Assembly (NCBI GenBank): GCA_001770655.1
Contig: MERQ01000080.1
Location: 15,272-79,271, forward strand
DNA: 64,000 bases
Direction of reading: 5' to 3'
From: Betaproteobacteria bacterium RIFCSPLOWO2_12_FULL_68_20
Lineage (GTDB): Bacteria > Pseudomonadota > Gammaproteobacteria > Burkholderiales > SG8-39
The notes under the pieces are model-generated. The model was not told where the DNA came from. It made no database searches and saw nothing but the letters and a program-made list of their open reading frames with translations. Shown piece by piece: positions 24,068-53,495 of the stretch; positions within the stretch are counted from its first letter, which is position 1; every line of letters starts with the position of its first letter. A program made the position numbers and the translations under genes.

Positions 24068-24091
24068 CCTACTCCTTGAGTCGCTTGACCA

Positions 24092-24703: not shown

Positions 24704-24849
24704 GCATCCCTCCCCGAACGGTGGTTACGCCTGGCCGCTGTTGCGCCATCTTCGACTGCCAGCACGGGCGAGGATACTGACCAGCCACTACCAGAAGACG
24801 TGCTACGATACTGACCGGTAACTCACAAGTCAAGCGGAACAACATTGGA

Positions 24850-25446
24850 ATGGCCAGAAAACGCAACAGCGACCGACCGAGCGCCCGCGAGCGCATCTTC
24901 GACACCGCTTCCGAGCTGTTTTATCGGAAGGGAATTCGCGCGGTGGGCGTCGAGACCATCGCCGCCCGGGCCGACACCACCAAGATGAGCCTGTACCGGA
25001 GCTTTCCTTCCAAGGATGAGCTGGTGGCCGAGTGGCTGCGCGACCACGACGTGAAATTCTGGCTGACGTGGGATTCGATGGCGCGGAAATTTCCCGGCGA
25101 GCCCCGCAAGCAGCTCCAGGCGTCGTTCGCATTGCTTGCCAAGCATGTATCCGATCCGCGTGCTCGAGGCTGCCCGATGGCGAATGCGGCGGTGGAGATC
25201 ACGGAGCGGGATCACCCGGCCAGGAGGGTGATCGAGTCCCACAAGGCGAAGCTGCGCGCGCGTCTTGCCGGGCTGTGCGAACTAGCTGGCGCCCGCGAGC
25301 CGGCGCTGCTGGCCGACGAGCTTTTCCTCCTCATGGAGGGCGCGCAGGTCAGCACCATCCTGGGGGTCCGCATGCCGGCGCGGAACGTCTCTCACGCCGC
25401 CGGAGCGCTGATCGATGCTCAGCTTCAAGGCAGGCGCCGCGCTTAG
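24850..25446 (+). CDS. TetR/AcrR family transcriptional regulator
   Basis: 198 aa with an N-terminal TetR HTH (RERIFDTASELFYRKGIRAVGVETIAARADTTKMSLYRSF). Confidence 0.85.
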   Translation: MARKRNSDRPSARERIFDTASELFYRKGIRAVGVETIAARADTTKMSLYRSFPSKDELVAEWLRDHDVKFWLTWDSMARKFPGEPRKQLQASFALLAKHVSDPRARGCPMANAAVEITERDHPARRVIESHKAKLRARLAGLCELAGAREPALLADELFLLMEGAQVSTILGVRMPARNVSHAAGALIDAQLQGRRRA

Positions 25447-25562
25447 CCGGACAACGCGTCGGACTCCTCCATCGCGCAGAACGCTCCCGATCCATCTTGG
25501 GGCTTCTTCAGTTTGAGGTGGCCACCGAGGGGGCGAGCGATGCGCACACCGGGGAAACGCGG

Positions 25563-26288
25563 ATGACGCAGAACAAGACAGTCACCGTATGTATCACGTC
25601 CTACGAAAGATTCGACTTGCTCAAACAAACCATCGATAGTTTCATGTCACTCAATACCTATGCGATTGAGAGATTCATTGTCGCGGAAGATTCCGCGAGA
25701 CCGGAAATGAGAGACCGGATTTCCGAAGAGTATGGCGACACCATTGACCTGATATACAACGAAGTCAATCTCGGGCAGCCGCGCTCAATAGACAAAGCTT
25801 ACAAAACGATAACCACCGACTACATTTTTCATACCGAGGACGACTATCTGTATTCTGGCAATGCCGACTTCATTCAGGATTCCATTTGCATTCTGGAAGA
25901 AAGAAGCGATGTACATCAAGTCTGGTTGCGGCATTTGGAAGACTATCTGGTCAGTCATGGTCCGGCGGCGCTATATGGTGAAGAGGGGACAAGGTTCTTT
26001 GAGGATGAGGTGCTCTTCACGTCGACACAAGTACCGTACAGAATGCTGAGGTTGCCGCACTGGGGTTCCTGGTGTGGATTCAGCTGGAACCCCGGCCTGC
26101 GCAGAACCAGCGACTACCACAAGTTCTTTCCCGACGGCTATGCAGTTCATGTGCAACCAGGCGACGTTGGATACCAGGCGGAATTCCGCTGCAACGTTCA
26201 TGCAATGGTGAATGGGTATCGAGCCGCATTTCTGGTCAATGGCGCCTGCAACAATATGGGCAATGAAGCTTCAACTTTCACCTATTGA
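25563..26288 (+). CDS. glycosyltransferase-like protein (GT-A fold, family 2-like)
   Basis: Last 241 aa of ORF 25032-26288. VTVCITSYERFDLLKQTIDSF...IVAEDS...HTEDDY resembles a GT2 N-terminus with a DXD-like motif. Lies in the low-GC island. Confidence 0.6.
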   Translation: MTQNKTVTVCITSYERFDLLKQTIDSFMSLNTYAIERFIVAEDSARPEMRDRISEEYGDTIDLIYNEVNLGQPRSIDKAYKTITTDYIFHTEDDYLYSGNADFIQDSICILEERSDVHQVWLRHLEDYLVSHGPAALYGEEGTRFFEDEVLFTSTQVPYRMLRLPHWGSWCGFSWNPGLRRTSDYHKFFPDGYAVHVQPGDVGYQAEFRCNVHAMVNGYRAAFLVNGACNNMGNEASTFTY

Positions 26289-26369
26289 TCGATTGATCGT
26301 GTGCTGCAGAACCGGCCAAGTCCAAAGATCCGCAACAGAACCAACTAACAGTGTCTTACGAGCGTAAGA

Positions 26370-27266
26370 ATGGAGGTGCAATTGTCCATACTCAAATCCT
26401 TCTTGCTCGATTTGATCTCTGGCAGAAAACCCGCTTCTGACATGTCCCAAGCACATCAGACTTTGGCGGCGGTAGACCAACGATTCGACATCTATCACGA
26501 CCTCCACCATCACCAACTTGTCGATCAGGAGGACGCCAATCGCCGTTCCGCGCACATAGTATTGTCCGGATTGTTCGGCCTGTATCGGCCAAAGTCCATA
26601 CTCGATGTGGGCTGCGGGATCGGCACCTGGCTTGCCTGTGCGCGTGACCTCGGAGTCCAGGACGTTTTCGGCATCGACGGGGAGTGGCTGGATATCAAGC
26701 TCGCGAAGGTTCCTGCGAATTTTCTTGCAACCCTCGACCTTGAACAATCATTCGATCTGGGCAGAAGATTCGATCTGGTGATTTGCCTCGAAGTTGCCGA
26801 GCATTTGAGCCGCGATGCGGCGGTCCGGTTTATTGAGTCGTTGACTTCTCATGCCGACGTCATTCTATTTTCCGCGGCGATACCATTCCAGGGCGGGCAT
26901 CATCATGTGAACGAACAGTTTCCAGGCTACTGGAAGAAAATTTTTCAGGCGCGCGGATTTCAACCGGTTGACTGTATTCGCCGCACGATCTGGGACGACG
27001 CTGACGTAATGTGGTGGCTCCGGCAAAACATCATGATTTTCGCTAAACCCGAGTTTGCGACCGGGGGCGGTCCGTTCGCTGGACGCGTCGACTTCGGGCC
27101 ACTGTCTATCGTTCACCCGGACGTGTATATGGCAAGGGTTGGCTTTGCTCAGAAATTGTTAGAGGAACACAATAAGCTCCTCGAGGTGCTGGGATCGGGA
27201 AAACCTGTAACGGTGGAACGCGGAGCAAATGGTGAGCTTCGGGTCTATTGCAAGGATCAGCAATGA
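26370..27266 (+). CDS. class I SAM-dependent methyltransferase
   Basis: 298 aa with motif I ILDVGCGIGTW and post-motif DLVICLEVAEHL. Low-GC. The start may be internal. Confidence 0.75.
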   Translation: MEVQLSILKSFLLDLISGRKPASDMSQAHQTLAAVDQRFDIYHDLHHHQLVDQEDANRRSAHIVLSGLFGLYRPKSILDVGCGIGTWLACARDLGVQDVFGIDGEWLDIKLAKVPANFLATLDLEQSFDLGRRFDLVICLEVAEHLSRDAAVRFIESLTSHADVILFSAAIPFQGGHHHVNEQFPGYWKKIFQARGFQPVDCIRRTIWDDADVMWWLRQNIMIFAKPEFATGGGPFAGRVDFGPLSIVHPDVYMARVGFAQKLLEEHNKLLEVLGSGKPVTVERGANGELRVYCKDQQ

Positions 27267-27327
27267 CTGCGACACGGCATAAGCGCGGATCTGCAGTAAA
27301 GCTACCAGGCGGGCGCCGCGCATAGCT

Positions 27328-33184: not shown

Positions 33185-34521
33185 ATGGCCGCAATCCGAC
33201 CCGCCGCAGTCGCCGGGATGTTCTATCCGGGCGAGGCGCGCGCGCTCGCCGCCGAGGTGCAGGAGCTTCTCGGCGGGGTGGAGCACCTCGCGCCGCGGCT
33301 CGGCTTTCCCAAGGTCCTGATCGTCCCGCACGCCGGCTACATCTACTCCGGCCCGGTGGCGGCGCGCGCCTACGACGAGCTTGGGCCGGCGCGCGGCATC
33401 GTCAAGCGCGTGGTCCTGCTCGGACCGGTGCACCGCGTACCGGTACGCGGCCTCGCGTTTCCCGGCTGGGACGGCTTCGCCACGCCGCTCGGTGTGGTGC
33501 CACTCGATCGGGCGGCGCTCGCCGCCGTGCAGGGCCTGCCGCAGGTGGTGAAAAGCGACCCGGCGCACGCGCTCGAGCACTCGCTCGAGGTGCAGTTGCC
33601 GTTCCTGCAGAAGGTTCTCGGCGACTTCTCGCTTGCGCCGTTCGCGGTCGGCTCGGCGAGCGTGGACGAGGTCGCCGAGGTGATCGAGCGGCTGTGGGGC
33701 GGACCCGAGACGCTGATCGTGATCTCGACCGACTTGTCGCACTATCACGCGTACGACGACGCCAGGCGCATCGACGGCTCGACCGTCTCGCGCATCTCGG
33801 GCCTCGTCACCGACCTCGACCACGAGGAGGCATGCGGCGCGACGCCGCTCAACGGCCTGCTCGCGGCGGCGAAACGCCGCGAGCTCTCGATCCGGCTGCT
33901 CGCCGCGTGCAACTCCGGTGATACCGCGGGCGGCAAGGACCGGGTGGTCGGCTACTCCTCGTTCGCGCTCGACGAAGGCGGCGCTGTGTCGCACGATGAG
34001 GCGGGCGGCACGCTCGTATCGATCGCGCGCGGCTCGATCGCCCACGCGCTGGGGCTGGGCGAGGCGCCCGGGCGCGGCGGCGCGCCGTGGCTCGCGCAGG
34101 CGGGCGCGACCTTCGTCACGCTCACGCGGGAGGGGCGTCTGCGCGGCTGCATCGGCAGCCTCGAGCCGGCGCGCGCGCTCGGCACGGACGTCGCCGAGAA
34201 CGCGCTCGGCGCGGCGTTCCGCGACCCGCGTTTCCCGGCGCTCGCGCGCGACGAATGGCCCCTCTGCCGGGTCGAGGTGTCGCTGCTCTCGGCGCCGAAG
34301 CCCATCCGCTTCGCCGACGAGGGCGATCTTCTCGAGCAGATCCGCGCCGGCGAGGACGGCATCATTCTCGAGCACGAGGGAAGGCGCGCGACGTACCTGC
34401 CGCAGGTGTGGGAAAGCCTGCCCGACAAGCGCCGCTTCCTCGAGGAGCTGAAACGCAAGGCCGGCATCGCGTCGGAGGCGCGCCTTGCGCGCTGCCGGCT
34501 GTCGCGCTACCGGGTGGTGAA

Positions 34522-34546
<25 letters not shown>
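33185..34546 (+). CDS. AmmeMemoRadiSam system protein B (Memo-like) fused to protein A (AMMECR1 domain)
   Basis: 453 aa. The N-terminal half is Memo-like (AVAGMFYPG, VPHAGYIYSG). The C-terminal half is AMMECR1-like (FVTL...GRLRGCIGS, YLPQVWE). Confidence 0.85.
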
Positions 34547-35621
<1,075 letters not shown>

Positions 35622-35625
<4 letters not shown>

Positions 35626-36869
35626 GCTCGCCCGGCTCGGGCGGCTGGCTCGCGTGGCTGTGCGCGAGCCGCGTGCTGTCGGCGGCCTGGTTCGTGGCGT
35701 ACTCGGCGGTGCTGCCGCTGGTGCGCGAGGCCTGGGGACTGTCGGCGCGCGAGGCCGGCATGATCCAGGGCTCGTTCCATCTCGGCTACCTGGTGTCGCT
35801 GTTCGTGGTCGGCTTCCTGGCCGATCACTTCGGTGCCAAGCGCGCGTTCCTCGTCACCGGCGTGGCGGGGTTCCTCACTCCGATCCTGTTCGTCGTGTTC
35901 GTCGAAGACTTCTGGTCGGCGCTGTGGCTGCATGCGCTCACGGGGCTTACGCAGGGCGGCTACTACACGCCGGTGCTGGCGATGGTGAACGACAACGTCG
36001 AGCGCCAGCGGCGCGGGCGCGCGATGGGCTTCCTGATCGCGGCTTCGAGCGCGGGTTACGCGCTCGCGCTCGGCACGGCGGGCCTCGTGCTGACCTTCGC
36101 CGGATGGCGCAGCGCGCTCTGGGTGCTCGCGGTGATGCCCGCGCTCGCCTGGGCGATCGCCGTGGTGGCGCTGCGTGGCACGCCGAACACCGTGCATCCG
36201 CGGCCGGCGGGGCACACCGTTCTCGCCTCGATCCCAGCGGTGCTGAAAAACAGAAACGGCATGCTCTCAGTGTGGGGTTACACCTTCCACAGCTGGGAGC
36301 TGCTCGGGCTTTGGGCGTGGCTGCCAGCGTTCCTCACCGCCTCGTTCGTCGCCGGCGGCATGAGCCCGGCCCAGGCCGCGGCGGCCGGAATCTCGCTCGG
36401 CGCGCTCACCTACGTCGCCAACATCGGCGGCAGCATTCTGGGGGGCGTCATGGCCGACCGCTGGGGGCGCACCCAGACCATCCTGCTGTGGTCCTCGGCG
36501 AGCCTCGCGCTTTCGTTCTCGATCGGCTGGCTGATCGCGCTCCCGGCCGGGCTGCTGGTCGCGCTGGCGTGCCTGTACAACCTCGCCGGGATCGCCGACT
36601 CCTCGGTGCACTCGACCGTGATCGCGGAGAGCGTGCCGCCGCACATATTGGGCGCGGCCTACGCGGTGCGCTCGGTGCTCGGCTTCGGCACCGGCGTGGT
36701 GAGCCCGGTGGTGTTCGGCTGGGCGCTCGACCTCGCGGGCGCGGGCGAGGCCCCGGCCGATGCCTTTGCTTGGGGCGTCGCCTGGTCGACGCTCGGGCTG
36801 GGCGGGCTGCTGGGGCCGCTCGCCACCTGGCGGCTGCAGCGCGCATCGGCGCCGCGTCCGTCGGGCTGA
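35622..36869 (+). CDS. MFS transporter
   Basis: C-terminal ~415 aa of ORF 35454-36869, about 12 hydrophobic helices. TTG at 35622 overlaps the rSAM stop (TTGA). The start is uncertain. Confidence 0.8.
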
Positions 36870-37423: not shown

Positions 37424-37438
37424 AATGGGGTCAGATCA
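37424..37438. repeat. left inverted repeat TGGGGTCAGATCAAC
   Basis: Read directly from the sequence. Partner lies at 38223-38237. Confidence 0.85.
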
Positions 37439-38168
37439 ACATTTCGGACGCGGTTCGTTCCCCGGTGTCCTCGGCGGTCTTCCCCGATTTCAGCGGTCGA
37501 CCGCGTCTTGGTGGCCTGACCGAGCGGCCGAGGATCCGCTCAATTTCGTTCACGAAGCGCTCGCTGCCGAGCGCCCATCCCGTTTTTGTGAAGGCTCGTA
37601 TCTTCGCGAGCTCCTCTTGCGCCAAGCTGTCTTGGAACATCGCTCTGAACTGGGCGCGACGCTCAGGGGCGTCCGGAGCGAGTGCAATGAACCGGCCATG
37701 CTCCGTGACCAGCGGATCGGGAACGCCATGAGCGTAGTGTCGGTGGCTCGACCATGGGTAGGCGCCTGGATCGTCGACCATGCCTGCGCGTACCGGATTG
37801 AGTTCGATATAGCGGTGGCAGGTGAAGAGATATGAATCGCTATCGATCAGCGACGCTTTGAATCGTCCTTCCCAGAGAGTGCCCGTTCGCTGGTGGATCT
37901 CATTGAATATCCGCACATAGCGTCTTCCGACTTCCTGCATCATGTGCGATACCGCCCCGGAAGCGAGCGGGGTCACGAGAAGGTGCACATGATTGGTCAT
38001 CAGAACGTACGCGTGGACCTGGCATAGGCACCGCCGAGATGCCTTGCGCAGGCATGACAGATACAGGCGATAGTCGCCATGCGCCCCGAAACAGGCGCAC
38101 CGATTGTTGCCGCGCTGCACTACGTGCCGAGCTACGCCCGGCAAATCTAGCCGCGGTCGCCGGGCCAT
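37431..38168 (-). CDS. REP-associated / IS200-like Y1 (HUH) tyrosine transposase
   Basis: ORF 37431-38252. ATG at 38168 (MARRPRLDLPG...) is preferred because the upstream codons run through the right repeat. HUH motif NHVHLLV and a catalytic-Tyr region CHRYIELNPVRAG. Confidence 0.8.
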   Translation of the reverse strand: MARRPRLDLPGVARHVVQRGNNRCACFGAHGDYRLYLSCLRKASRRCLCQVHAYVLMTNHVHLLVTPLASGAVSHMMQEVGRRYVRIFNEIHQRTGTLWEGRFKASLIDSDSYLFTCHRYIELNPVRAGMVDDPGAYPWSSHRHYAHGVPDPLVTEHGRFIALAPDAPERRAQFRAMFQDSLAQEELAKIRAFTKTGWALGSERFVNEIERILGRSVRPPRRGRPLKSGKTAEDTGERTASEMLI

Positions 38169-38222
38169 TGGGGCATGACTTTCCACGCCGTCATGCCACC
38201 AAAACGCACAACTCGGGAAAAA

Positions 38223-38237
38223 GTTGATCTGACCCCA
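38223..38237. repeat. right inverted repeat GTTGATCTGACCCCA
   Basis: Exact reverse complement of 37424-37438. Ends 1 nt from the stop codon of the 38239-39114 gene. Confidence 0.85.
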
Positions 38238-38238
38238 A

Positions 38239-39114
38239 TTAATCCTTCGCAAGAAGGTGCATGAGGCTGGAGGTGTCCCAGCGGCTGCCGCCGCGCGCCT
38301 GGATCTGCGCGTAGAACTGGTCCACCAGCGCCGTCACCGGCAGCCGCGCGCCGTTCTTCTTCGCCTCCTCCAGGCAGATGCCGAGATCCTTCCTCATCCA
38401 GTCCACGGCGAAGCCGAAGCCGTCGAACTTGACCTCGTTCATCTGCTTCCAGCGGTTCTCCATCTGCCAGGACTGCGCCGCGCCCTTGGAGATCACCGAG
38501 AACACCCTGTCCATGTCGAGGCCGGCGCGCTTGCCGAAGTTGATGCCTTCGGCAAGCCCCTGCACCAGCCCGGCGATCACGATCTGGTTCACCATCTTGG
38601 TAAGCTGCCCCGCCCCGGGACCGCCGATCAGCGCGCAGCTCTTGGCATACAGATCGAGGGCCGGCTTGACCTTGTCGAAATCGGGCTGCTCGCCGCCGCA
38701 CATGATGCCGAGCTGCCCGTTCTGCGCGCCCGCCTGCCCGCCCGAGACAGGTGCGTCCACGAAGCCGATGCCCTTTTCCTTCGCCTTGGCGTGGACTTCG
38801 CGCGCCACGATCGCCGAGGCGGTGGTGTGGTCCACCAGGATCGCGCCCTTCTTCATCCCCGCCAAGGCTCCGTTGTCGCCGTAGACCACCGAGCGCACGT
38901 CGCTGTCGTTGCCGACGCACATCATGACGAAATCGCAGTCCTTCGCCGCCTCGCGCGGGGTGGGGGCGGAATTGCCGTCGTGCTCCTTCGCCCACTGCTG
39001 GACCTTGGCCGCGGTGCGGTTGTATACGGTGACGTCGTGCCCCCCCTTTTTCAGCAGGTGGCCCGCCATCGGGTAGCCCATCACGCCCAGACCGAGAAAT
39101 GCGAGCTTTGCCAT
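38239..39114 (-). CDS. NAD(P)-dependent 3-hydroxyisobutyrate dehydrogenase-family oxidoreductase
   Basis: ORF 38239-39126. ATG at 39114 ([13 protein letters not shown]) is preceded by GGAGA. Rossmann motif GLGVMG. Confidence 0.85.
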
Positions 39115-46746: not shown

Positions 46747-47289
46747 ATGGCAGATCGCCCGCAATCTCTCGCGCACCTGGAGTTCCTCGGCGACGCGACG
46801 GGATTCGCCGCGCAGATGCACGCGCTCATCCCGAAGTGCGCGCTGCTGGAGAACTTCTCGCCGGCCGAGGTGCGGCTGCTCGCGCATTTCATGGACGTGT
46901 ACCGTGCCGAGCCGGGTGCCGAGATCATCCACGAGGGCGAGGGCGGCGACTTCATGCTGATGATCGTCGAAGGCAGGGTCGAAGTGCGCAAGCGCGATCG
47001 CTGGAACACCCCCCAGGTCATCGCGACGGTCGAGGCCGGGCGCACGCTGGGCGAGATGTCGATGATCGATGGCGAGCCGCGTTTCGCCACCTGCGTGGCG
47101 ATCGAGCCGACGCTCGCCGCGGTGCTCGACCGGGAGGCCCTGGCGCGAATCATCGTCGAGCAGCCGATGCTCGGCGCCAAGATCCTGATGGAGCTGGTGC
47201 TGATGCTGTCGCAGCGCCTGCGCGCGACCAGCCTGCGGCTGATGGGATTTCTCGACGAGCAGGCGCAGCGCGCGACCGGTACGCTTTGA
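46747..47289 (+). CDS. stand-alone cyclic-nucleotide-binding (CAP effector) domain protein
   Basis: 180 aa. cNMP-binding pattern GE.GD.M..IVEG.V.V...... GE.S.IDG.PR.A. No DNA-binding HTH after it. Confidence 0.8.
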   Translation: MADRPQSLAHLEFLGDATGFAAQMHALIPKCALLENFSPAEVRLLAHFMDVYRAEPGAEIIHEGEGGDFMLMIVEGRVEVRKRDRWNTPQVIATVEAGRTLGEMSMIDGEPRFATCVAIEPTLAAVLDREALARIIVEQPMLGAKILMELVLMLSQRLRATSLRLMGFLDEQAQRATGTL

Positions 47290-47369
47290 GCGCGCCGCAT
47301 CCGGAATAGCGCGCCCGCCGTAGCTGTTTTAACGCTGTAAGCCCCGGGCGCCGGCCCCGACTGACGACC

Positions 47370-48335
47370 ATGCACGCGACGCTTCCCCTGATGCGGCAGT
47401 ACGGTTTTCCGGACCTGCGGCGCTCGCGCCTGGAGACCCTGCAGGTGAACCTGGGCTACAAGTGCAACCAGGCCTGCCTGCACTGCCACGTCAACGCGAG
47501 CCCCGAGCGCAAGGAGATGATGTCGCGCGAGACGATCTCGGACGTGCTCGCGTTCCTCGGCTGCAGCGCGGTGCGCAGGCTGGACATCACCGGCGGCGCC
47601 CCCGAGCTCAACCCGCACTTTCGCCGGCTGGTCGCGCGCGCACGCGAGCTCGGCGTGCATGTCCTGGACCGCTGCAACCTGACCATCCTGGAGGAGCCCG
47701 GGCAGGAGGATCTGGCTGAGTTCCTCGCCGCCGAGCGCGTCGAGGTGATCGCATCGCTGCCGTGCTACCTGGAGGAAAACGTGGCGCGCCAGCGCGGCAA
47801 GGGCGTGTTCGAGAAAAGCATTCGCGCGCTGAGGAGGCTCAACGCCCTCGGCTACGGCCGCCCGTCGAGCGGCCTGGAGCTGCACCTCGTCTACAACCCG
47901 CAGGGGCCTACGCTGCCCCCGCCGCAGGCGGGTCTGGAGGCGGACTACCGGCGCGTGCTCGGCGAGCACCACGGCGTCGCCTTCAACCGGCTCTACACCA
48001 TGGCCAACATGCCGATCCAGCGCTTCGGCTCGACGCTCGTCTCGCGCGGCCAGTTCAACGAGTACATGGCGCTGCTGCGCGGCGCGCACCGCGACGAGAA
48101 TCTGCAAGCGGTGATGTGCAAGACGCTGCTCTCGGTCGACTGGCAGGGCTACGTGTACGACTGCGACTTCAACCAGATGCTCGGCCTGCCGCTCGTCGTC
48201 CATGGCCGAAAGCGTACGCATCTTTCGCAGCTGATCGGCAGCGACCTCTCGGGCAACCCGGTCGCCGTGCGCGATCACTGCTACGGCTGCACCGCCGGGC
48301 AGGGCTCGTCGTGCGGGGGCGCGCTCGATGGCTGA
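47370..48335 (+). CDS. arsS: radical SAM/Cys-rich domain protein (ArsS / 'selenodomain' family), Cys form
   Basis: 321 aa. CX3CX2C in LGYKCNQACLHC and a C-terminal HCYGCTAGQGSSCGG tail. The family is recognised from memory and needs HMM confirmation. Confidence 0.85.
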   Translation: MHATLPLMRQYGFPDLRRSRLETLQVNLGYKCNQACLHCHVNASPERKEMMSRETISDVLAFLGCSAVRRLDITGGAPELNPHFRRLVARARELGVHVLDRCNLTILEEPGQEDLAEFLAAERVEVIASLPCYLEENVARQRGKGVFEKSIRALRRLNALGYGRPSSGLELHLVYNPQGPTLPPPQAGLEADYRRVLGEHHGVAFNRLYTMANMPIQRFGSTLVSRGQFNEYMALLRGAHRDENLQAVMCKTLLSVDWQGYVYDCDFNQMLGLPLVVHGRKRTHLSQLIGSDLSGNPVAVRDHCYGCTAGQGSSCGGALDG

Positions 48336-49296
48336 CGCGGTTCCCGGCCGCTTCTGCCCGGTCTCCTACCGCTACCGGGCGGAGGCGCTGCGCGGACCCG
48401 CGCAGCTCAGCGTCGAGACGCTCTGGGTCGCAGGCGGCCTGTATGGCAACCCGTTCGCGCTGCAGCGCCTCGCCGAGCTCTACGACCGCGAGCCCGGCGC
48501 GAAAGCGCTGATCTTCAACGGCGATTTTCACTGGTTCGACGTCGACGCGGAGGATTTTCGACTGATCGATGAGTCGGTGCTGCGCTACCGCGCGACGCGC
48601 GGCAATGTTGAAACCGAGCTCGCGCGGCCGGACGCCGCCGCGGGCTGCGGGTGCGCCTATCCGGAATGGGTGGGCGGGACCACGGTCGAGCACTCCAACC
48701 GCATCATCGAGCGGCTGCGATCGACGGCGCGCTCGTTTCCGCGGCTGCTCGAGCGGCTCGCGGCGCTGCCGATGCACCTCGTCGCCGAGGTCGGCGGCGA
48801 GCGCGTCGCCGTGGTGCACGGCGACGCCGACTCGCTTGCCGGCTGGGGATTCTCGCAGGAGCGGCTCGCGACCGCGGACGGCGCCGCGGCAGGGGCGGCG
48901 GCGCTCGCCGCCGCGAATGCGCGAATCTTCGCTTGCAGCCACACCTGCCTGCCGGTGCTGCAGCGCTTCGCGGGCGGCCGCGCGGTGGCGAACAACGGCG
49001 CCGCGGGCATGCCGAATTTCCGCGGCACCTCGTTCGGCCTCGCCACGCGCATCTCGATCGAGCCGAGCCGGCTCGCGCTCTACGCAGTGCGCGCCGGGGA
49101 CCTGTTCGTCGAGGCCGTGCCGATCGACTACGACGCCGCCGCCTGGAATCGCCGCTTTCTCGCGCAATGGCCGGCCGGCTCCGACGCGCACCGCTCGTAT
49201 TTCGAGCGCATCGCGGGCGGGCCGTCCTACGCGATGAGCCAGGCGCTGCGTCCCGAAGCCCCGCATACAATCGCCTCTGCGCGCCGCGCCGCGTAG
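48328..49296 (+). CDS. calcineurin-like metallophosphoesterase-like protein (rSAM-cluster partner)
   Basis: 322 aa. NGDFHWFD, RGNVE, VVHGDAD and CSHTC resemble phosphoesterase motifs II-V. Motif I looks degenerate. 8-nt overlap with the upstream gene. Confidence 0.65.
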   Translation: MADAVPGRFCPVSYRYRAEALRGPAQLSVETLWVAGGLYGNPFALQRLAELYDREPGAKALIFNGDFHWFDVDAEDFRLIDESVLRYRATRGNVETELARPDAAAGCGCAYPEWVGGTTVEHSNRIIERLRSTARSFPRLLERLAALPMHLVAEVGGERVAVVHGDADSLAGWGFSQERLATADGAAAGAAALAAANARIFACSHTCLPVLQRFAGGRAVANNGAAGMPNFRGTSFGLATRISIEPSRLALYAVRAGDLFVEAVPIDYDAAAWNRRFLAQWPAGSDAHRSYFERIAGGPSYAMSQALRPEAPHTIASARRAA

Positions 49297-49319
49297 CGCC
49301 GGCGGGCAGGGAGGATTCG

Positions 49320-51470
49320 GTGAACAGATCCCGGTTGCTGGTTCTCGCCGTCGTCGCGGTGCTGGTTGCGGCGTTCTTCGCGGCGGGCGGACATCGCTAC
49401 CTGACGTTCGAGAACGCGAAGGCGCAGCAGGCCGCGATCCAGTCCTTCTACCGGTCGCATCCGTGGCAGGCCGCGCTCGGCTATTTCGCGGCCTACGTCG
49501 CCGTGACCGGGCTCTCGCTGCCCGGCGCGGCGCTGATGACGCTCGTCGGGGGCGGCATCTTCGGGCTCGCCTGGGGAACGCTGATCATCTCCTTCGCCTC
49601 CACCATCGGAGCGACGCTCGCGTTTCTCGCCAGCCGCTTCGTGCTGCGCGACTGGGTGCAGCAGCGCTTCGCGCGGCATCTGCGCGCGATCAACCAGGGC
49701 TTCGAGAGGGAGGGCGGCTTCTACCTTTTCACGCTGCGCCTGATCCCGGCGGTGCCGTTCTTCGTCATCAACCTGGCGATGGGGCTGACGCCGATGCGCA
49801 CCTGGACCTTCTACTGGGTGAGCCAGCTCGGGATGCTCGCCGGGACCGTCGTGTACGTGAACGCCGGCACGCAGCTCGCGGCGATCGACTCGCCGGCCGG
49901 GATCCTGTCTCCGGGACTGATCGGCGCGTTCGCGCTGCTCGGCGTCTTCCCGCTCGCCGCCAAGAAGGTCGTGGACGCCGCGAAGGCGCGCAAGGTGTAC
50001 GCGCGCTGGCGGCGGCCGGCGCGGTTCGACCGCAACCTGATCGTGATCGGCGCGGGCTCGGCGGGGCTGGTGTCGGCGTACATCGGCGCCGCGGTGCGCG
50101 CCAAGGTGACGCTCGTGGAAAAGCACCGCATGGGCGGGGACTGCCTCAATACCGGCTGCGTGCCCTCGAAAGCGCTCATCAGGTCGGCGCGGCTGCTGGC
50201 GCAGATCCGGCGCGCGCGGGACTTCGGTCTGAAGGGCGCGAGCGCCGAATTCGACTTCGCCGAGGTGATGGAGCGCGTGCAGCGCGTGGTGAAGGCGGTC
50301 GAGCCGCACGATTCCATCGAGCGCTACACGGCGCTGGGCGTCGAATGCCTCGAGGGCGAAGCGAGGATCGTATCGCCCTGGGAAGTCGAAGTGAAACTGA
50401 GGAGCGGGGGCACGCGTCGTCTGGCGACGCGCGCGATCGTGATCGCCGCCGGGGCGCGCCCGTTCGTGCCGCCGATTCCCGGCATCGAGTCGATCGAGGT
50501 TCTCACCTCCGACAACGTCTGGGGGCTGCGCCGGCTGCCGGGCCGGCTCGCGGTGCTGGGCGGCGGGCCGATCGGCTCGGAGCTGGCCCAGGCGTTCGCG
50601 CGCTTCGGCTCGAAGGTGACGCAGATCGAGATGCTGCCGCGGATCCTCGCGCGCGAGGACCCGGAGGTGTCCGAGATGGTGCGCCGGCGCTTCGAGGAGG
50701 AGGGCGTCGACGTGCGGGTCGGTCACCGGGCCCGGCAGGTCCTCGCCGGGAACGGGAGGAAGATTCTCGTCTGCGAGCACGCAGGCGGAGAAGCGAGAAT
50801 CGAATTCGACGAGCTGTTGTGCGCCGTGGGACGCGTGGCGAACACCTCGGGCTACGGCCTGGAGGAGCTCGGCATCCCGACGACGAAGGCGCGCACCGTG
50901 GAGACGAACGAGTACCTGCAGACGATCTATCCCAACATCTACGCCTGCGGCGACGTGGCGGGTCCGTACCAGTTCACGCACACCGCCTCGCACCAGGCCT
51001 GGTACGCCTCGGTGAACGCCCTGTTCGCGCCGCTGAGGAGATTCCGCGCCGACTATTCCGCGATCCCCTGGGCGACCTTCACCGAGCCCGAGGTGGCCCG
51101 GGTCGGGCTGAACGAGATCGAGGCGAAGGAACGCGACATCCCTTACGAGGTCTCCGTGTACGGGATCGACGACCTCGATCGCGCGATCGCGGACGGCGAA
51201 GCGCACGGCATGGTGAAAGTGCTCTCGGTGCCCGGCAAGGACCGCATCCTGGGCGCGACCATCGTCGGCGAGCACGCGGCGGACCTGATCGTGGAGTTCA
51301 TTTCGGCGATGCGAAACGGCATCGGGTTGAACCGGATCCTGGGCACCATCCACATCTACCCGACGTTCGCCGAAGCGAACAAGTACGCCGCCGGGGCGTG
51401 GAAGAGGGCCCACGTGCCGGATTGGCAGCTGCGCACGGCCGAGAGGATCCTGGCCTGGATGCGCGGATGA
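49320..51470 (+). CDS. DedA/TVP38-TMEM64 membrane domain fused to FAD-dependent pyridine nucleotide-disulfide oxidoreductase
   Basis: Last 716 aa of ORF 48651-51470. GTG at 49320 follows GGAGG. N-terminal polytopic region (LRLIPAVPFFVINLAMG), then GAGSAGL, the redox pair CLNTGC and a dimerisation domain. Confidence 0.85.
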   Translation: MNRSRLLVLAVVAVLVAAFFAAGGHRYLTFENAKAQQAAIQSFYRSHPWQAALGYFAAYVAVTGLSLPGAALMTLVGGGIFGLAWGTLIISFASTIGATLAFLASRFVLRDWVQQRFARHLRAINQGFEREGGFYLFTLRLIPAVPFFVINLAMGLTPMRTWTFYWVSQLGMLAGTVVYVNAGTQLAAIDSPAGILSPGLIGAFALLGVFPLAAKKVVDAAKARKVYARWRRPARFDRNLIVIGAGSAGLVSAYIGAAVRAKVTLVEKHRMGGDCLNTGCVPSKALIRSARLLAQIRRARDFGLKGASAEFDFAEVMERVQRVVKAVEPHDSIERYTALGVECLEGEARIVSPWEVEVKLRSGGTRRLATRAIVIAAGARPFVPPIPGIESIEVLTSDNVWGLRRLPGRLAVLGGGPIGSELAQAFARFGSKVTQIEMLPRILAREDPEVSEMVRRRFEEEGVDVRVGHRARQVLAGNGRKILVCEHAGGEARIEFDELLCAVGRVANTSGYGLEELGIPTTKARTVETNEYLQTIYPNIYACGDVAGPYQFTHTASHQAWYASVNALFAPLRRFRADYSAIPWATFTEPEVARVGLNEIEAKERDIPYEVSVYGIDDLDRAIADGEAHGMVKVLSVPGKDRILGATIVGEHAADLIVEFISAMRNGIGLNRILGTIHIYPTFAEANKYAAGAWKRAHVPDWQLRTAERILAWMRG

Positions 51471-52126
51471 GGCTCTCGATCGTCGTCCCGACGCTGAACG
51501 AAGCGCCGATCATCCGCGCGGCGCTCGAGGCGCTCGCGCCGCTGCGCGCGCGCGGCCACGAGCTGATCGTCGCCGACGGCGCGAGCGACGACGGCACGCC
51601 CGAGCTGGCGCAGCCGCTGTGCGATCGGCTGATCCTCGCCGCGCGAGGGCGCGCGACGCAGATGAATGCCGGCGCTCGCGAGGCGAGGGGAGAGGCGCTG
51701 CTGTTCCTTCACGCGGACACGCGCCTGCCGCCGGACGCGGACAGGCCGGTCCTCGACGCGCTCGCGAGCCGCGTGTGGGGCCGCTTCGATGTCGCGATCG
51801 AAGGCAGACATGCGCTGCTGAAGTGGGTCGGCTGCGCGATGAACCTGCGCTCGCGGCTCAGCGGCATCGCCACCGGCGACCAGGCGATCTTCGTGCGGCG
51901 CGAGGCGTTCGCCGGGTTCCCCGAGATCGCGCTCATGGAGGACGTCGCGTTCAGCCGGGCGATGAGGCGCCGCGGTGCGCCCGCCTGCCTGCGCGAGCGC
52001 GTCGCGACCTCGGGGCGCCGCTGGGAGTCGCGCGGCGTGCTGCGCACCGTCTGGCTGATGTGGCGGCTGCGGCTCGAATTCGCGCTCGGCGCCGATCCGG
52101 CGCGCCTGGCCGAGCGGTACCGGTGA
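51467..52126 (+). CDS. GT-A glycosyltransferase-like protein (rSAM/selenodomain-associated transferase 2-like)
   Basis: Last 219 aa of ORF 49463-52126. LSIVVPTLNE...ADGASDD...LHADT. ATGA overlap with the upstream stop. Confidence 0.8.
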   Translation: MRLSIVVPTLNEAPIIRAALEALAPLRARGHELIVADGASDDGTPELAQPLCDRLILAARGRATQMNAGAREARGEALLFLHADTRLPPDADRPVLDALASRVWGRFDVAIEGRHALLKWVGCAMNLRSRLSGIATGDQAIFVRREAFAGFPEIALMEDVAFSRAMRRRGAPACLRERVATSGRRWESRGVLRTVWLMWRLRLEFALGADPARLAERYR

Positions 52127-52752
52127 GGCGCGGCGGGATCGCGGTGCTCGTATTCGCGCGCGCTCCGCTTCCCGGCCGCGCCAAGTCGCGCCTCGCGCAG
52201 CGGCTGGGCGGCTGGGGCGCGGCGCGGCTGCAAGCCCGGCTCACGCTGCGCGCGCTTCGCACCGCGCTCTCGGCGGGCTGCGGTCCGGTCGAGCTGCACT
52301 GCACGCCGCGTTGCCGGCACGCGTTTTTTCGGTACTGCGCGCAGCTCCTTGCGGTGAAGCTCCGCGGCCAGCACGGCGCCGATCTGGGCGAGCGCATGCT
52401 GCGCGCGCTCTCGCGCGGCCTGCGCACGCATCGCGCGGCGATCCTGATCGGTGCCGACTGCCCCGAGCTGCGCGCGCGGGACCTGCGGCGGGCGGCGCAG
52501 CTGCTCAGGGGAGGGTGCGACGCGGTGCTCGCGCCGGCCGAGGACGGCGGCTATGCGCTGATCGGGCTGCGCCGCGTTTCGCCGCGGCTGTTCGCGGGCC
52601 TGGAGTGGGGCGGCCCGCAGGTCTATTCGCGCACCGCGCTCGAGCTGGCGAAGCTCGGCTGGCGCTGGCGCGCGCTGCGCACCGTCTGGGACGTGGACCG
52701 GCCGCAGGACCTCGAGCGCCTGCGCGCGAGCCGGCTGCTGGAGCGGCGGTGA
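52123..52752 (+). CDS. DUF2064-type transferase-like protein (rSAM/selenodomain-associated transferase 1-like)
   Basis: Last 209 aa of ORF 51619-52752. AVLVFARAPLPGRAKSRL...IGADCP...DGGYALIG. GTGA overlap. Confidence 0.75.
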   Translation: MRRGGIAVLVFARAPLPGRAKSRLAQRLGGWGAARLQARLTLRALRTALSAGCGPVELHCTPRCRHAFFRYCAQLLAVKLRGQHGADLGERMLRALSRGLRTHRAAILIGADCPELRARDLRRAAQLLRGGCDAVLAPAEDGGYALIGLRRVSPRLFAGLEWGGPQVYSRTALELAKLGWRWRALRTVWDVDRPQDLERLRASRLLERR

Positions 52753-53495
52753 GGCGGCGCCGCTTTCTCGGCGCGCTCGCGGCGCTGGGCGCCGCGCCCG
52801 GCTTCGCCTCGGAACACACGGTGGAAGCGATGCGGTTCTCGTCGCTCGCTCCTGGGGCGGCGCTGCCGGAGTGGCTGCGCCCCTACGCCTTCGCCAACCG
52901 GCCGCGGCTCACCGAGTACTCGCTCGTCGAGGACGATCGCCGCACGGTGCTGCGCGCCCGCGCCGACGCCGCCACGGCCGGATTGATCCGCAGGCTCCGG
53001 GTGGATGCGGGCCGCTACCCGATCGTTGGCTGGCGCTGGAAGGTGACGAACCTGCTCGCGAAGAGCGACCTCGCCACGAAGGAGGGCGACGATTACCCGG
53101 TGCGGCTCTACGTCGGCTTCGACGTCGATCCGGCCACGCTCCCGGCCGCAGAGCGCTTCAAGCTCGACCTCGCGCGCCTGTTCTGGGGCGAGGATCTGCC
53201 GCTCGCCGCGCTGTGCTACGTGTGGGACGCGCGCGCTCCCGCCGGCACCTTCGCCCCGAACGCCTACACCGACCGGGTGCGCATGGTGGTGGTGGAGAGC
53301 GGCGCGGCGCGGCTGGGGCGCTGGGTGGCGTACGAGCGCGACGTGGCCGTGGACTACCGCCGCGCATTCGGACCGTCGCGCCCGCCGGTGCCGGCGGTGA
53401 ACGCGGTCATCGTCTCGACCGACACCGACAACACCGGCGAGCGGGCCGAAGCGTTCTACGGGGACGTCGAATTCAGATCGCGCCGCTCTTCCTGA
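52749..53495 (+). CDS. DUF3047-like exported protein with twin-arginine-type signal
   Basis: Last 248 aa of ORF 52311-53495. N-terminus VRRRRFLGALAALGAAPGFA. GTGA overlap. Family recognised from memory. Confidence 0.7.
   Translation: MRRRRFLGALAALGAAPGFASEHTVEAMRFSSLAPGAALPEWLRPYAFANRPRLTEYSLVEDDRRTVLRARADAATAGLIRRLRVDAGRYPIVGWRWKVTNLLAKSDLATKEGDDYPVRLYVGFDVDPATLPAAERFKLDLARLFWGEDLPLAALCYVWDARAPAGTFAPNAYTDRVRMVVVESGAARLGRWVAYERDVAVDYRRAFGPSRPPVPAVNAVIVSTDTDNTGERAEAFYGDVEFRSRRSS

What the first reader, a model, noticed from the sequence alone, without database searches (positions are those of the whole stretch)
47370..53495. Six-gene stop/start-coupled operon around a radical SAM/Cys-rich (ArsS, 'selenodomain'-type) enzyme, with no arsenic or selenium genes beside it
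Seen: 47370-48335 encodes a radical SAM protein (CX3CX2C in LGYKCNQACLHC) with a Cys-rich tail HCYGCTAGQGSSCGG. Five same-strand genes follow, joined by an 8-nt overlap, a 23-nt gap, then ATGA (51467), GTGA (52123) and GTGA (52749). They encode a phosphoesterase-like protein, a DedA/TVP38 domain fused to an FAD disulfide reductase (CLNTGC), a GT-A transferase-like protein, a DUF2064-like protein, and a DUF3047-like protein with an RRRRFLGALAALGAAPGFA Tat-type signal. Established: this rSAM family is annotated ArsS (arsenosugar synthesis together with ArsM in cyanobacteria). Some members carry selenocysteine in the C-terminal motif. The two transferase families were defined only by co-occurrence with it. 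No biochemical role is established for the whole set. Inference: with no arsM/ars or sel genes in this window, the default arsenosugar label is doubtful. The ensemble looks like a membrane/periplasm-directed pathway making a ribosyl/5'-deoxyadenosyl- or chalcogen-modified glycoconjugate. This is the best candidate here for an uncharacterised system.
Basis: partly seen in the sequence, partly recalled or inferred. Interest (0 to 1): 0.75.

Follow-up and report, generated by a model that had tools for sequence, protein, structure and literature searches.

The report
ArsS-centred organoarsenic sugar operon
This is a real six-gene operon, conserved across many Proteobacteria, built around the enzyme that attaches the adenosine sugar unit to methylated arsenic; relatives tie it to arsenic and point to candidate enzymes for the still-unknown later steps of arsenosugar synthesis.

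Summary
Six translationally coupled + strand genes lie at 47370-53495: ArsS (TIGR04167), a Cys-rich phosphoesterase-fold protein with no family model, a DedA domain fused to a flavoprotein disulfide reductase, TIGR04283 (GT2), TIGR04282 (DUF2064), and a Tat-signal DUF3047. The 64-kb window holds no arsM.

In relatives the same genes sit beside arsM. This holds for 13 of 80 loci, a Cupriavidus megaplasmid and a Pseudanabaena plasmid. Some clusters also carry MTA phosphorylase. The phosphoesterase-like protein occurs fused to ArsS and to DUF2064. DedA and the reductase occur fused or as adjacent genes next to ArsS in four lineages. One promoter-like motif, GTAAG-N16/17-CGAC, precedes ArsS, the DedA/reductase genes and, in one locus, MTAP.

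Most likely pathway (steps after ArsS are inferred):
- DMAs(III) is converted by ArsS to 5'-dimethylarsinoyl-adenosine.
- Phosphorolysis removes adenine.
- TIGR04282 activates the sugar-1-phosphate with a nucleotide.
- TIGR04283 transfers the sugar to an acceptor.
- The Cys-rich protein and the DedA-reductase supply or reduce the arsenical.

Only ArsS has biochemistry behind it. I class this as a new variant of a known kind, of moderate to good interest.

The parts
47336..47361 (+). Promoter-like motif TGTAAG-N16-CGAC, ending 8 nt before the ArsS ATG. This implies a very short or absent leader. It is probably recognised by an ECF-type sigma factor (inferred).
   Evidence: This is the only match in the 64-kb window (expected 0.08). 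GTAAG-N15-18-CGAC lies within 200 nt upstream of ArsS in 23 of 80 loci, against a background of 0.005 per 200 nt. Of 73 instances in all loci examined, 30 precede ArsS, 12 precede DedA/reductase genes and 1 precedes MTAP. The spacer is 16 nt in 29 cases and 17 nt in 13. No sigma-70-type promoter was found.
47370..48335 (+). g1: ArsS, a radical SAM enzyme (321 aa). It has CX3CX2C at C32/C36/C39, a DUF3641 domain, and the C-terminal motif HCYGCTAGQGSSCGG.
   Evidence: TIGR04167 scores 457 bits (cutoff 300); DUF3641 and Radical_SAM match. Ten Cys are invariant or near-invariant in 81 sequences. The family's biochemistry, DMAs(III) to DDMAA, is reported in PMC13598754.
48328..49296 (+). g2: ArsS-partner protein (322 aa) with a metallophosphoesterase fold. 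Metal motif I is degenerate (GGLYGN). Conserved Cys are C10, C107-G-C109 and C207. No Pfam or NCBIfam family describes it.
   Evidence: Foldseek top hits are SapH (3qfm), 1nnw and 2gju, E = 6e-9. The model has pLDDT 72. Conservation was assessed. The family has 1041 representative clusters. Fusions g2-ArsS (P0332, P0334) and DUF2064-g2 (P0247) exist. In relatives it lies directly after ArsS or one gene downstream.
49320..51470 (+). g3: a DedA/VTT membrane domain (about residues 1-232, five TM-like segments) fused to a class I flavoprotein disulfide reductase. The redox pair is C275/C280, and an H-x-Y-P-T motif is conserved.
   Evidence: Domains were assigned. Only C275 and C280 are invariant among the Cys in 48 homologues, and there is no MerA-type C-terminal Cys pair. 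The two domains are fused in betaproteobacteria. They are separate adjacent genes in gammaproteobacterial loci, in Cupriavidus and in Pseudanabaena.
51467..52126 (+). g4: TIGR04283-family GT-A (GT2) glycosyltransferase, 219 aa, soluble.
   Evidence: TIGR04283 scores 249 bits (cutoff 182); Glycos_transf_2 matches. The nearest solved relatives by sequence are polyprenyl-phosphate mannose synthases 6yv7 and 5mlz, over the N-terminal part only.
52123..52752 (+). g5: TIGR04282/DUF2064 protein with a CofC/MobA-like nucleotidyltransferase fold and the motif PGRAKSRL. Predicted (inferred) to activate a sugar-1-phosphate or other phospho-substrate with an NTP.
   Evidence: TIGR04282 scores 181 bits (cutoff 134); CofC (TIGR03552) gives E = 5e-6. 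DUF2064 and NTP_transf_3 match. PDB 3cgx gives E = 9e-17.
52749..53495 (+). g6: DUF3047 protein with a twin-arginine signal and a beta jelly-roll fold like carbohydrate-binding modules. Its 3' end overlaps the convergent GDSL-lipase gene by 23 nt.
   Evidence: DUF3047 scores 240 bits. The RR pair is invariant in 29 homologues. The model has pLDDT 87. Foldseek hits include the beta-sandwich domain of D-glucuronyl C5-epimerase, CBM11, CBM30 and GH12, with E from about 4e-6 to 1e-3.

Best explanation
The operon processes methylated arsenic into ribose-linked organoarsenicals of the arsenosugar type. It lies in an uncultured Burkholderiales-like betaproteobacterium and is driven by its own non-sigma-70 promoter, probably an ECF-type one.

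Shown for the family: ArsS reductively cleaves SAM and adds the 5'-deoxyadenosyl radical to dimethylarsenite, DMAs(III). The product is 5'-deoxy-5'-dimethylarsinoyl-adenosine (DDMAA).

Inferred from gene context:
1. DDMAA is an analogue of methylthioadenosine. An MTA phosphorylase removes adenine from it. That gene is inside the cluster in some relatives and must be elsewhere in this genome. The product would be 5-dimethylarsinoyl-ribose-1-phosphate.
2. g5 (CofC/MobA-like) converts this to an NDP-sugar.
3. g4 (GT2) transfers the arsenoribosyl unit to an acceptor, either glycerol-type or lipid-linked.
4. g2 works physically with ArsS. Together with g3, it delivers or keeps reduced the thiol-reactive trivalent arsenical. 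NAD(P)H would feed the FAD and then the C275/C280 dithiol. The DedA domain would move an arsenical or a lipid-linked product across the membrane.
5. g6 binds or trims the glycoside in the periplasm.

No arsM is nearby. The arsenic input is therefore either made by an arsM elsewhere in the genome or is environmental DMAs. Detoxification of neighbours' methylarsenicals is a plausible role.
For: - ArsS equivalog score and motifs.
- ArsS biochemistry: adenosylation of DMAs(III) (Cheng et al. 2021, cited); arsM-arsS co-transcription in Synechocystis.
- Co-occurrence in 40 well-flanked loci: g4 33, g5 33, DedA 31, reductase 30, g2 18, g6 11.
- ArsM in the cluster: L012 and L013 (NF038099, 554 bits); 13 of 80 loci overall.
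- Cupriavidus KK10 p1 has ArsM-ArsS-FAD reductase-DedA-TIGR04283-TIGR04282-MTAP. Identities to the window proteins are 66, 59, 62, 58 and 44%.
- The B. glumae plasmid cluster has ArsS plus a g2 homologue, and MTAP (NF005657, 455 bits) beside TIGR04283 and TIGR04282.
- MTAP-like genes lie near the cluster in L048, L056 and L060.
- The Pseudanabaena plasmid has DedA-reductase-ArsM-DedA-ArsS.
- g2-ArsS and DUF2064-g2 fusion proteins exist.
- DedA and the reductase occur both fused and split.
- A shared promoter motif lies upstream of ArsS, g3 homologues and one MTAP.
- An ECF sigma factor lies near ArsS in 16 of 80 loci, and an ECF plus zf-HC2 anti-sigma pair lies inside the B. glumae cluster.
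- g5 resembles CofC/MobA and PDB 3cgx.
- PhnD-type ABC transporters or SSS-like transporters lie directly after ArsS in 13 loci.
Against: - No arsM, ars, MTAP or arsenic regulator is in the 64-kb window, and the rest of the genome could not be searched.
- Only 13 of 80 loci have ArsM within 10 kb, and only about 5 clusters carry MTAP.
- No protein other than ArsS has been tested biochemically, in the literature I could search.
- The step assignments for g2, g3, g4, g5 and g6 rest on fold, fusion and neighbourhood only.
- g2 lacks two canonical metallophosphoesterase metal ligands, so it may not be a hydrolase.
- g6 is absent from the closest relatives (L001, L004, L022, L035, L089), so it is dispensable.
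- Arsenosugar production has not, to my knowledge, been reported from such heterotrophs.
Confidence: 0.6

Rival explanations
1. The same enzymes act on a non-arsenic nucleophile, for example a selenium, sulfur or tellurium species. They would make a 5'-chalcogen-modified ribosyl glycoconjugate. On this reading 'ArsS' is a misnomer for these proteobacterial members.
For: No arsM is in the window and 67 of 80 loci lack it within 10 kb. TIGR03169, a family found fused to SelD elsewhere, lies downstream in 13 loci and in B. glumae. Some TIGR04167 members are selenoproteins. A DedA protein has been linked to selenite uptake in Ralstonia (my own recollection, not checked).
Against: ArsS proteins with and without adjacent ArsM are 61-80% identical to the window's, and share all conserved Cys and the same C-terminal motif. 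ArsM-family genes are the only substrate-specifying neighbours that recur across three proteobacterial classes and a cyanobacterium. No selD, selA or selB was seen in any locus examined. The only demonstrated substrate is DMAs(III).
Confidence: 0.12
2. There are two unrelated modules that merely share a chromosomal site. One is an ArsS/TIGR04283/TIGR04282 arsenical module. The other is an envelope redox or lipid module (DedA-reductase, g2, DUF547, DUF3047) with no role in arsenic chemistry.
For: g2, g6 and DUF547 are variably present. DedA proteins and disulfide reductases are common families found in many contexts. The alphaproteobacterial loci have only ArsS-g4-g5.
Against: The genes have stop/start overlaps. 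g2 is found fused to ArsS and to DUF2064. DedA and the reductase flank ArsM/ArsS in a cyanobacterial plasmid locus where no TIGR04282 or TIGR04283 gene is annotated within 9 kb. The same promoter motif precedes ArsS and g3 homologues. The DedA/reductase pair is kept next to ArsS whether fused or split, and in either order.
Confidence: 0.1
3. This is a variant of the main explanation that differs in destination. g4 would make a polyprenyl-phosphate-linked arsenoribose, the DedA domain would flip it, and the product would decorate an envelope glycan or lipid in the periplasm with help from g6. The logic resembles ArnC/GtrB systems.
For: g4's nearest solved relatives by sequence are polyprenyl-phosphate mannose synthases. 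DedA proteins are reported as lipid or undecaprenyl-phosphate flippases (my own knowledge). g6 is Tat-exported and resembles a carbohydrate-binding module. Patatin-like phospholipases are inserted in 5 loci.
Against: The match to those synthases covers only the generic N-terminal GT2 region at E = 1e-5. g4 has no TM segment. No periplasmic GT-C transferase is in the cluster. g6 is dispensable in close relatives. DedA also accompanies ArsM/ArsS where g4 is absent.
Confidence: 0.15

Closest known systems
Synechocystis sp. PCC 6803 arsM-arsS arsenosugar pathway (Xue et al. 2019; Cheng et al. 2021, as cited)
   Same: ArsS is of the same equivalog family, with all Cys motifs. ArsM is the in-cluster partner in several relatives. 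The expected product is DDMAA.
   Different: No arsM is within 64 kb here. Five extra coupled genes are present. The host is a heterotrophic betaproteobacterium rather than a cyanobacterium or alga. The steps after ArsS are unknown in both systems.
NCBIfam 'arsenosugar biosynthesis' trio TIGR04167 / TIGR04282 / TIGR04283
   Same: All three models are matched above their curated cutoffs, and the genes lie in one operon.
   Different: The two transferase names rest on co-occurrence only. This operon adds the g2 family (no model exists), a DedA-reductase fusion and DUF3047. None of these three is named in that scheme.
Sugar-1-phosphate to NDP-sugar to glycoside routes, and MTA phosphorylase salvage (for example GgpS/GgpP-type synthesis of glycosyl-glycerol)
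   Same: The clusters contain an MTAP (in relatives), a MobA/CofC-like nucleotidyltransferase and a GT-A transferase. These are the three activities needed to turn a 5'-substituted adenosine into a glycoside.
   Different: No activity has been shown. MTAP is not in this window. DUF2064 is not a classical sugar-1-phosphate nucleotidyltransferase family.
Class I flavoprotein disulfide reductases (MerA, dihydrolipoamide dehydrogenase, glutathione reductase)
   Same: The FAD and NAD(P)H domains, the CxxxxC redox pair and the His-containing C-terminal active-site motif are present. Best PDB hits are MerA and LipDH, at E = 5.5e-72 to 4e-65 for the top four entries.
   Different: It scores below every curated equivalog cutoff. 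It has no MerA C-terminal Cys pair and no NmerA domain. It is fused to a DedA membrane domain.
Arsenate reductases built on phosphatase scaffolds (ArsC of the LMW-PTPase type, Acr2 of the Cdc25 type); my own knowledge, used as an analogy for g2
   Same: g2 is a phosphoesterase fold that has lost part of its catalytic metal site, has gained conserved cysteines, and lives in an arsenic gene cluster next to a disulfide reductase.
   Different: The fold is different (metallophosphoesterase). No reductase activity has been shown. The proposed substrate, dimethylarsinate, is a hypothesis.

Membership tests
ArsS (TIGR04167) | HMM score above the curated equivalog cutoff | tested here: met
   457.2 bits against a cutoff of 300, covering profile positions 2-303 of 303.
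ArsS (TIGR04167) | Radical SAM CX3CX2C motif, DUF3641 C-terminal domain, and the C-terminal Cys (or Sec) motif C-x-x-C...SS(C/U)GG | tested here: met
   C32/C36/C39 are present; DUF3641 gives E = 2e-53; HCYGCTAGQGSSCGG is identical in 81 sequences.
ArsS (TIGR04167) | Adenosylation of DMAs(III) to DDMAA | not testable with these tools
   This is known for the characterised ArsS and needs an enzyme assay for this protein.
arsM-arsS arsenosugar locus as characterised in cyanobacteria | arsM adjacent to or co-transcribed with arsS | tested here: not met
   There is no ArsM homologue in the window even at E <= 10. The feature is met in relatives: L012, L013, L073, L015, L028, L047 and others, Cupriavidus KK10 and Pseudanabaena.
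TIGR04283 family glycosyltransferase | HMM above cutoff and a GT2 fold signature | tested here: met
   249.5 bits against 182; Glycos_transf_2 gives E = 3e-17.
TIGR04282 / DUF2064 | HMM above cutoff and a nucleotide-diphospho-sugar-transferase-like fold | tested here: met
   180.8 bits against 134; DUF2064 gives E = 7e-29; PDB 3cgx gives E = 9e-17.
   g2 matched no NCBIfam model at E <= 1e-3. I could not verify that this model is in release 20.
Calcineurin-like metallophosphoesterases (g2) | Metallophosphoesterase fold | tested here: met
   Foldseek hits are 3qfm, 1nnw and 2gju at E = 6e-9 to 3e-8, with target-normalised TM-scores (TMt) of 0.60-0.66. The Pfam Metallophos_2 hit is only 21 bits, below the cutoff of 27.
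Calcineurin-like metallophosphoesterases (g2) | Full set of dinuclear metal ligands (DxH ... GD ... GNH[DE] ... H ... GHxH) | tested here: not met
   Motif I is GGLYGN (Asp and His lost). Motif III is GNVE (His lost). Motif V is SHTC (second His replaced by Cys). D66, N93, H164 and H205 are kept.
DedA / VTT (g3 N-terminus) | VTT domain HMM and multiple TM segments | tested here: met
   PF09335 scores 83.6 bits against a cutoff of 33.9. Five TM-like segments lie in residues 6-213.
Mercuric reductase MerA (g3 C-terminus) | Score above the equivalog cutoff and a C-terminal Cys pair | tested here: not met
   TIGR02053 scores 369 bits against a cutoff of 454. There is no C-terminal Cys, and only C275 and C280 are conserved.
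Class I flavoprotein disulfide reductase (g3 C-terminus) | Pyr_redox_2 plus the dimerisation domain, a CxxxxC redox pair, and a C-terminal His motif | tested here: met
   PF07992 scores 203 bits and PF02852 scores 95 bits. CLNTGC is invariant, and H-x-Y-P-T is conserved in 48 sequences.
DUF3047 (g6) | Pfam HMM above the gathering score | tested here: met
   239.6 bits against 27.
Tat-exported proteins (g6) | Twin-arginine motif followed by a hydrophobic stretch and an A-x-A-type cleavage site | tested here: met
   The sequence is RRRRFLGALAALGAAPGFA/SE, and the RR pair is invariant in 29 homologues. Export itself was not tested.

The most novel reading that the evidence does not exclude
g2 and g3 form an arsM-independent entry route for methylated arsenic.

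Dimethylarsinate (cacodylate) mimics a phosphodiester. It would be taken up with the help of the DedA domain. It would then bind in the residual phosphoesterase pocket of g2. The conserved cysteines of g2 (C10, C107-G-C109, C207) would reduce it to DMAs(III). The product would pass directly to ArsS. The NAD(P)H-dependent disulfide reductase of g3 would re-reduce g2.

On this reading g2 would be a dedicated reductase or chaperone for pentavalent methylarsenicals. To my knowledge no such enzyme has been defined. MTAP, TIGR04282 and TIGR04283 would be the missing downstream enzymes of arsenosugar synthesis. The whole regulon would be switched on by an ECF/zinc-anti-sigma pair that senses thiol-reactive arsenicals.
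Probability: 0.15. Interest if true: 0.8.

Novelty: new variant of a known kind. Interest (0 to 1): 0.58.

Why it matters
Arsenosugars are the main organic arsenic species in algae and seafood. ArsM and ArsS are the only enzymes with experimental support in the literature I could search, and the steps after ArsS remain a proposal.

This operon and its relatives offer a concrete, testable candidate list for those steps:
- an MTA phosphorylase;
- the DUF2064 nucleotidyltransferase-like protein;
- the TIGR04283 glycosyltransferase.

They also add three unannotated partners tied to ArsS by gene fusion, synteny and a shared promoter motif:
- a family of about 1000 representative clusters of Cys-rich phosphoesterase-fold proteins;
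- DedA plus a disulfide reductase;
- DUF3047.

The cluster is widespread in soil, groundwater and wastewater Proteobacteria and sits on plasmids of the rice pathogen Burkholderia glumae. Ribose-linked arsenic chemistry may therefore extend well beyond phototrophs. That is relevant to arsenic cycling in paddy soils and aquifers. Cultured hosts are available for genetics: Cupriavidus sp. KK10, B. glumae, Aquariibacter albus and Roseateles puraquae.

Tried and rejected
- Two home-made gene callers mis-called the loci. I replaced them with tblastn family mapping and a GC-frame caller that recovers the six genes.
- TIGR04168 for g2: no hit.
- Sequence search of the PDB for ArsS, g2 and g6 gave nothing useful.
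- There are no Rfam families and no tRNAs in the window.
- No sigma-70 promoter was found, and no terminator count clearly above chance: 7 found against 3.3 +/- 2.0 expected, several of them inside genes.
- The methyltransferase upstream of the cluster in L087 is not ArsM-like. The low-GC methyltransferase at 26370-27266 also has no ArsM similarity.
- B. glumae plasmids carry the cluster but no ArsM homologue.
- The paper by Xue et al. 2019 is not held, so its content is cited only through other papers.
I did not try to link an ArsM to the same organism through shared metagenome samples, because that test would be too indirect.
- The structure models could not be inspected at atom level, so the spatial clustering of the g2 cysteines is untested. 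The CGC loop has pLDDT below 50.

Full report
**1. The observation**

The six + strand ORFs, their quoted motifs and all five junctions are exactly as described. The junctions are an 8-nt overlap, a 23-nt gap with a GGGAGG ribosome-binding site, then ATGA, GTGA and GTGA.

An ArsS protein identical to the window's is carried on at least 23 metagenome contigs. On the six contigs shown, independent gene callers give the same six genes in the same neighbourhood. That neighbourhood is recA-recX-alaS-AAA-4HBT-DAHP synthase-cNMP-binding protein, then the six genes, then a convergent GDSL lipase and TctB-TctA.

Profile searches confirm most assignments:
- g1 is ArsS (TIGR04167, 457 bits against a cutoff of 300).
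- g3 is a VTT/DedA domain plus Pyr_redox_2 and a dimerisation domain.
- g4 is TIGR04283 (249 bits against 182).
- g5 is TIGR04282/DUF2064 (181 bits against 134).
- g6 is DUF3047 (240 bits).
- g2 has no family. It gives only a sub-threshold Metallophos_2 hit and no NCBIfam hit, so TIGR04168 is not met.

The window has no homologue of ArsM, MTAP, DUF547 or the SSS-like transporter. Its other genes are housekeeping. This rests on the Pfam labels and on my own reading of the translations.

**2. Conservation**

The best 80 are 64-80% identical. They come from beta-, gamma-, alpha- and zetaproteobacterial MAGs and a few isolates.

I mapped the window proteins, and the genes inserted in relatives, onto these loci. 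In the 40 loci with at least 7 kb upstream and 8 kb downstream of ArsS, the counts are:

| Gene family | Loci (of 40) |
|---|---|
| TIGR04283 | 33 |
| TIGR04282 | 33 |
| DedA | 31 |
| Disulfide reductase | 30 |
| g2 | 18 |
| DUF547 (signal peptide, CxxxxCP motif) | 15 |
| DUF3047 | 11 |
| SSS-like transporter | 8 |
| TIGR03169 oxidoreductase | 8 |
| ArsM | 6 |

All lie on the ArsS strand except one reductase copy (L073). The core is therefore ArsS, the two transferase-like proteins and DedA/reductase. g2, DUF547 and DUF3047 form a variable shell. The closest syntenic relatives differ from the window only by the presence or absence of DUF547 and DUF3047.

**3. The link to arsenic**

- The gene between ArsS and the g3 homologue in L012 and L013 matches NF038099 at 554 bits (cutoff 400). 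That model is 'arsenosugar biosynthesis arsenite methyltransferase ArsM'.
- ArsM-family genes flank ArsS in 13 of 80 loci, spread over three proteobacterial classes.
- On Cupriavidus sp. KK10 plasmid p1 the order is ArsM-family methyltransferase, ArsS, FAD reductase, DedA, TIGR04283, TIGR04282, MTA phosphorylase, a second radical SAM enzyme, DUF547.
- On a Pseudanabaena galeata plasmid the order is ArsR ... DedA, 'mercuric reductase', arsenosugar ArsM, DedA, ArsS. The reductase is 42% identical to the g3 reductase part.
- ArsS proteins with and without an ArsM neighbour share all ten conserved cysteines and an identical C-terminal HC[YF]GCTAGQGSSCGGAL motif.
- In three loci a PhnD-type (phosphonate-like) ABC transporter follows ArsS.

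Absence of arsM from this window is therefore weak evidence against arsenic. The gene may lie elsewhere in the genome, or the substrate may be environmental dimethylarsenic.

**4. Evidence bearing on mechanism**

(a) Burkholderia glumae plasmids (49 records) carry ArsS followed directly by a g2 homologue that is 49% identical. Divergently transcribed from these are thioredoxin, CcdA, an ECF sigma factor with a zf-HC2 anti-sigma factor, an MFS transporter, MTA phosphorylase (NF005657, 455 bits), TIGR04283, TIGR04282 and a TIGR03169-like oxidoreductase. MTAP-like genes also lie by the cluster in L048, L056, L060 and Cupriavidus.

DDMAA, the ArsS product, is a 5'-substituted adenosine like methylthioadenosine. 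Phosphorolysis of DDMAA would give a ribose-1-phosphate. That is the natural substrate for a nucleotidyltransferase. g5 has the CofC/MobA-like fold and a KSRL motif. A GT-A transferase (g4) would then complete the route. This is inference, but it uses every conserved soluble enzyme in a standard order.

(b) g2 has a predicted metallophosphoesterase fold (model pLDDT 72). Its top Foldseek hits are the Ap4A hydrolase/phosphodiesterase SapH and two archaeal homologues, at E = 6e-9.
- Across 97 representatives down to 36% identity it keeps D66, N93, E95, H164, D166 and H205.
- It has lost the motif-I Asp and His.
- It has strictly conserved G-C107-G-C109, with C10 and C207 conserved at about 91%.
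- The family has 1041 representative clusters at E <= 1e-3.
- It includes proteins in which the g2 domain is fused to ArsS (P0332, P0334), to DUF2064 (P0247) and to an ABC ATPase (P0248).

g2 is thus an integral ArsS partner. Its chemistry is unknown. A thiol-based arsenical chaperone or reductase, or a phosphatase acting on a phosphorylated glycoside, are the two readings I consider.

(c) g3 is a DedA domain joined to a classical disulfide reductase. The redox pair C275/C280 and the H-x-Y-P-T motif are invariant. There are no MerA-type extra cysteines. The two halves are fused in betaproteobacteria. They are separate neighbouring genes, in either order, in gammaproteobacterial loci, in Cupriavidus and in the cyanobacterium. 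This argues that they work together and with ArsM/ArsS.

(d) g6 has an invariant twin-arginine signal and a confident jelly-roll model (pLDDT 87). The model resembles carbohydrate-binding modules, the beta-sandwich domain of glucuronyl C5-epimerase and GH12 enzymes, at fold level only.

**5. Regulation**

I aligned the short region upstream of ArsS in nine close relatives. This exposed a conserved T-GTAAG-G-A-A ... CGAC-(C/T)-A-A motif.
- In the window it lies at 47336-47361 and ends 8 nt before the ATG. It is the only such match in 64 kb, where 0.08 is expected.
- GTAAG-N15-18-CGAC occurs within 200 nt upstream of ArsS in 23 of 80 loci, 17 of which were not used to derive the motif. The background is 0.005 per 200 nt.
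- Of 73 instances overall, 30 precede ArsS, 12 precede DedA/reductase genes and one precedes MTAP.
- The spacer is 16 or 17 nt.

ECF sigma genes (TIGR02943) lie near ArsS in 16 loci, and one lies inside the B. glumae cluster with a zinc-finger anti-sigma factor. I infer an ECF-type regulon. I also infer that the operon starts at ArsS rather than at the upstream cNMP-binding gene. No sigma-70 promoter or convincing terminator was found.

**6. Comparison with what is known, and novelty**

- ArsS is a member of the characterised family. The arsM-arsS locus definition is not met here, though it is met in relatives.
- TIGR04282 and TIGR04283 are already named 'arsenosugar biosynthesis glycosyltransferase' by NCBI on co-occurrence grounds. 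I found no experimental work on them, nor on DUF3047, the g2 family or the DedA-reductase pairing with ArsS.
- The later steps of arsenosugar synthesis are still written as a hypothetical nucleosidase plus glycosidation.

The finding is therefore not a new kind of system. It is a richer, proteobacterial variant of the ArsS system, and it makes those open steps directly testable.

**7. Verdict**

| Question | Result |
|---|---|
| Observation | Confirmed |
| Confidence that this is an ArsS-centred organoarsenical operon | About 0.6-0.7 |
| Confidence in the individual step assignments | About 0.3-0.4 |
| Interest | 0.58 |

Noticed in passing
window 33185-35625 (+), with an MFS transporter gene at 35622-36869: A second uncharacterised radical SAM system is present. 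One ORF looks like a MEMO1-like domain fused to an AMMECR1-like domain, followed by a radical SAM enzyme (an AmmeMemoRadiSam-type trio). The last gene overlaps an MFS transporter gene by its stop/start codons. I identified these by eye from the translations, not by HMM.
   Followed up: no
window about 24000-27300: This is a low-GC island (GC 0.59-0.61, against about 0.69 elsewhere). It holds an OmpA-like ORF, a TetR-like regulator (24850-25446), a GT2-like ORF (about 25560-26288) and a class I methyltransferase (26370-27266) that has no ArsM similarity. It is probably horizontally acquired.
   Followed up: partly
window about 37431-38252 (-): An IS200/IS605-type Y1 transposase (PF01797) lies about 9 kb upstream of the operon. 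Its called length varies between otherwise identical metagenome contigs, 189 aa against 251 aa.
   Followed up: no
L091 12117-14314; L093 17503-19699; L044; L049: A second radical SAM protein of about 465 aa is paired with DUF547 in ArsS clusters of B. glumae, Cupriavidus KK10 and two MAGs. Its best matches are weak ones to the (seleno)protein TrsS and to the tetraether lipid synthase Tes. It is not present in the window.
   Followed up: partly
L029, L042, L049, L068, L072 (between the g2 and g3 homologues): Patatin-like phospholipase genes are inserted inside the cluster in five loci. This hints at a lipid connection, for example arsenosugar phospholipids.
   Followed up: no
L009, L016, L021, L027, L038, L040, L048, L054, L057, L079 (most directly after ArsS): A 462-aa membrane protein with only a weak sodium/solute-symporter match (TIGR00813, E = 2e-6) and no Pfam family follows ArsS in most of ten loci. 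None of these loci has ArsM. It may import the arsenical.
   Followed up: partly
window 46747-47289 (+): A stand-alone cNMP-binding-domain protein of 180 aa lies 80 nt upstream of ArsS. It keeps that position in the closest syntenic relatives. The conserved promoter-like motif lies between it and ArsS, so it is probably not part of the operon.
   Followed up: partly
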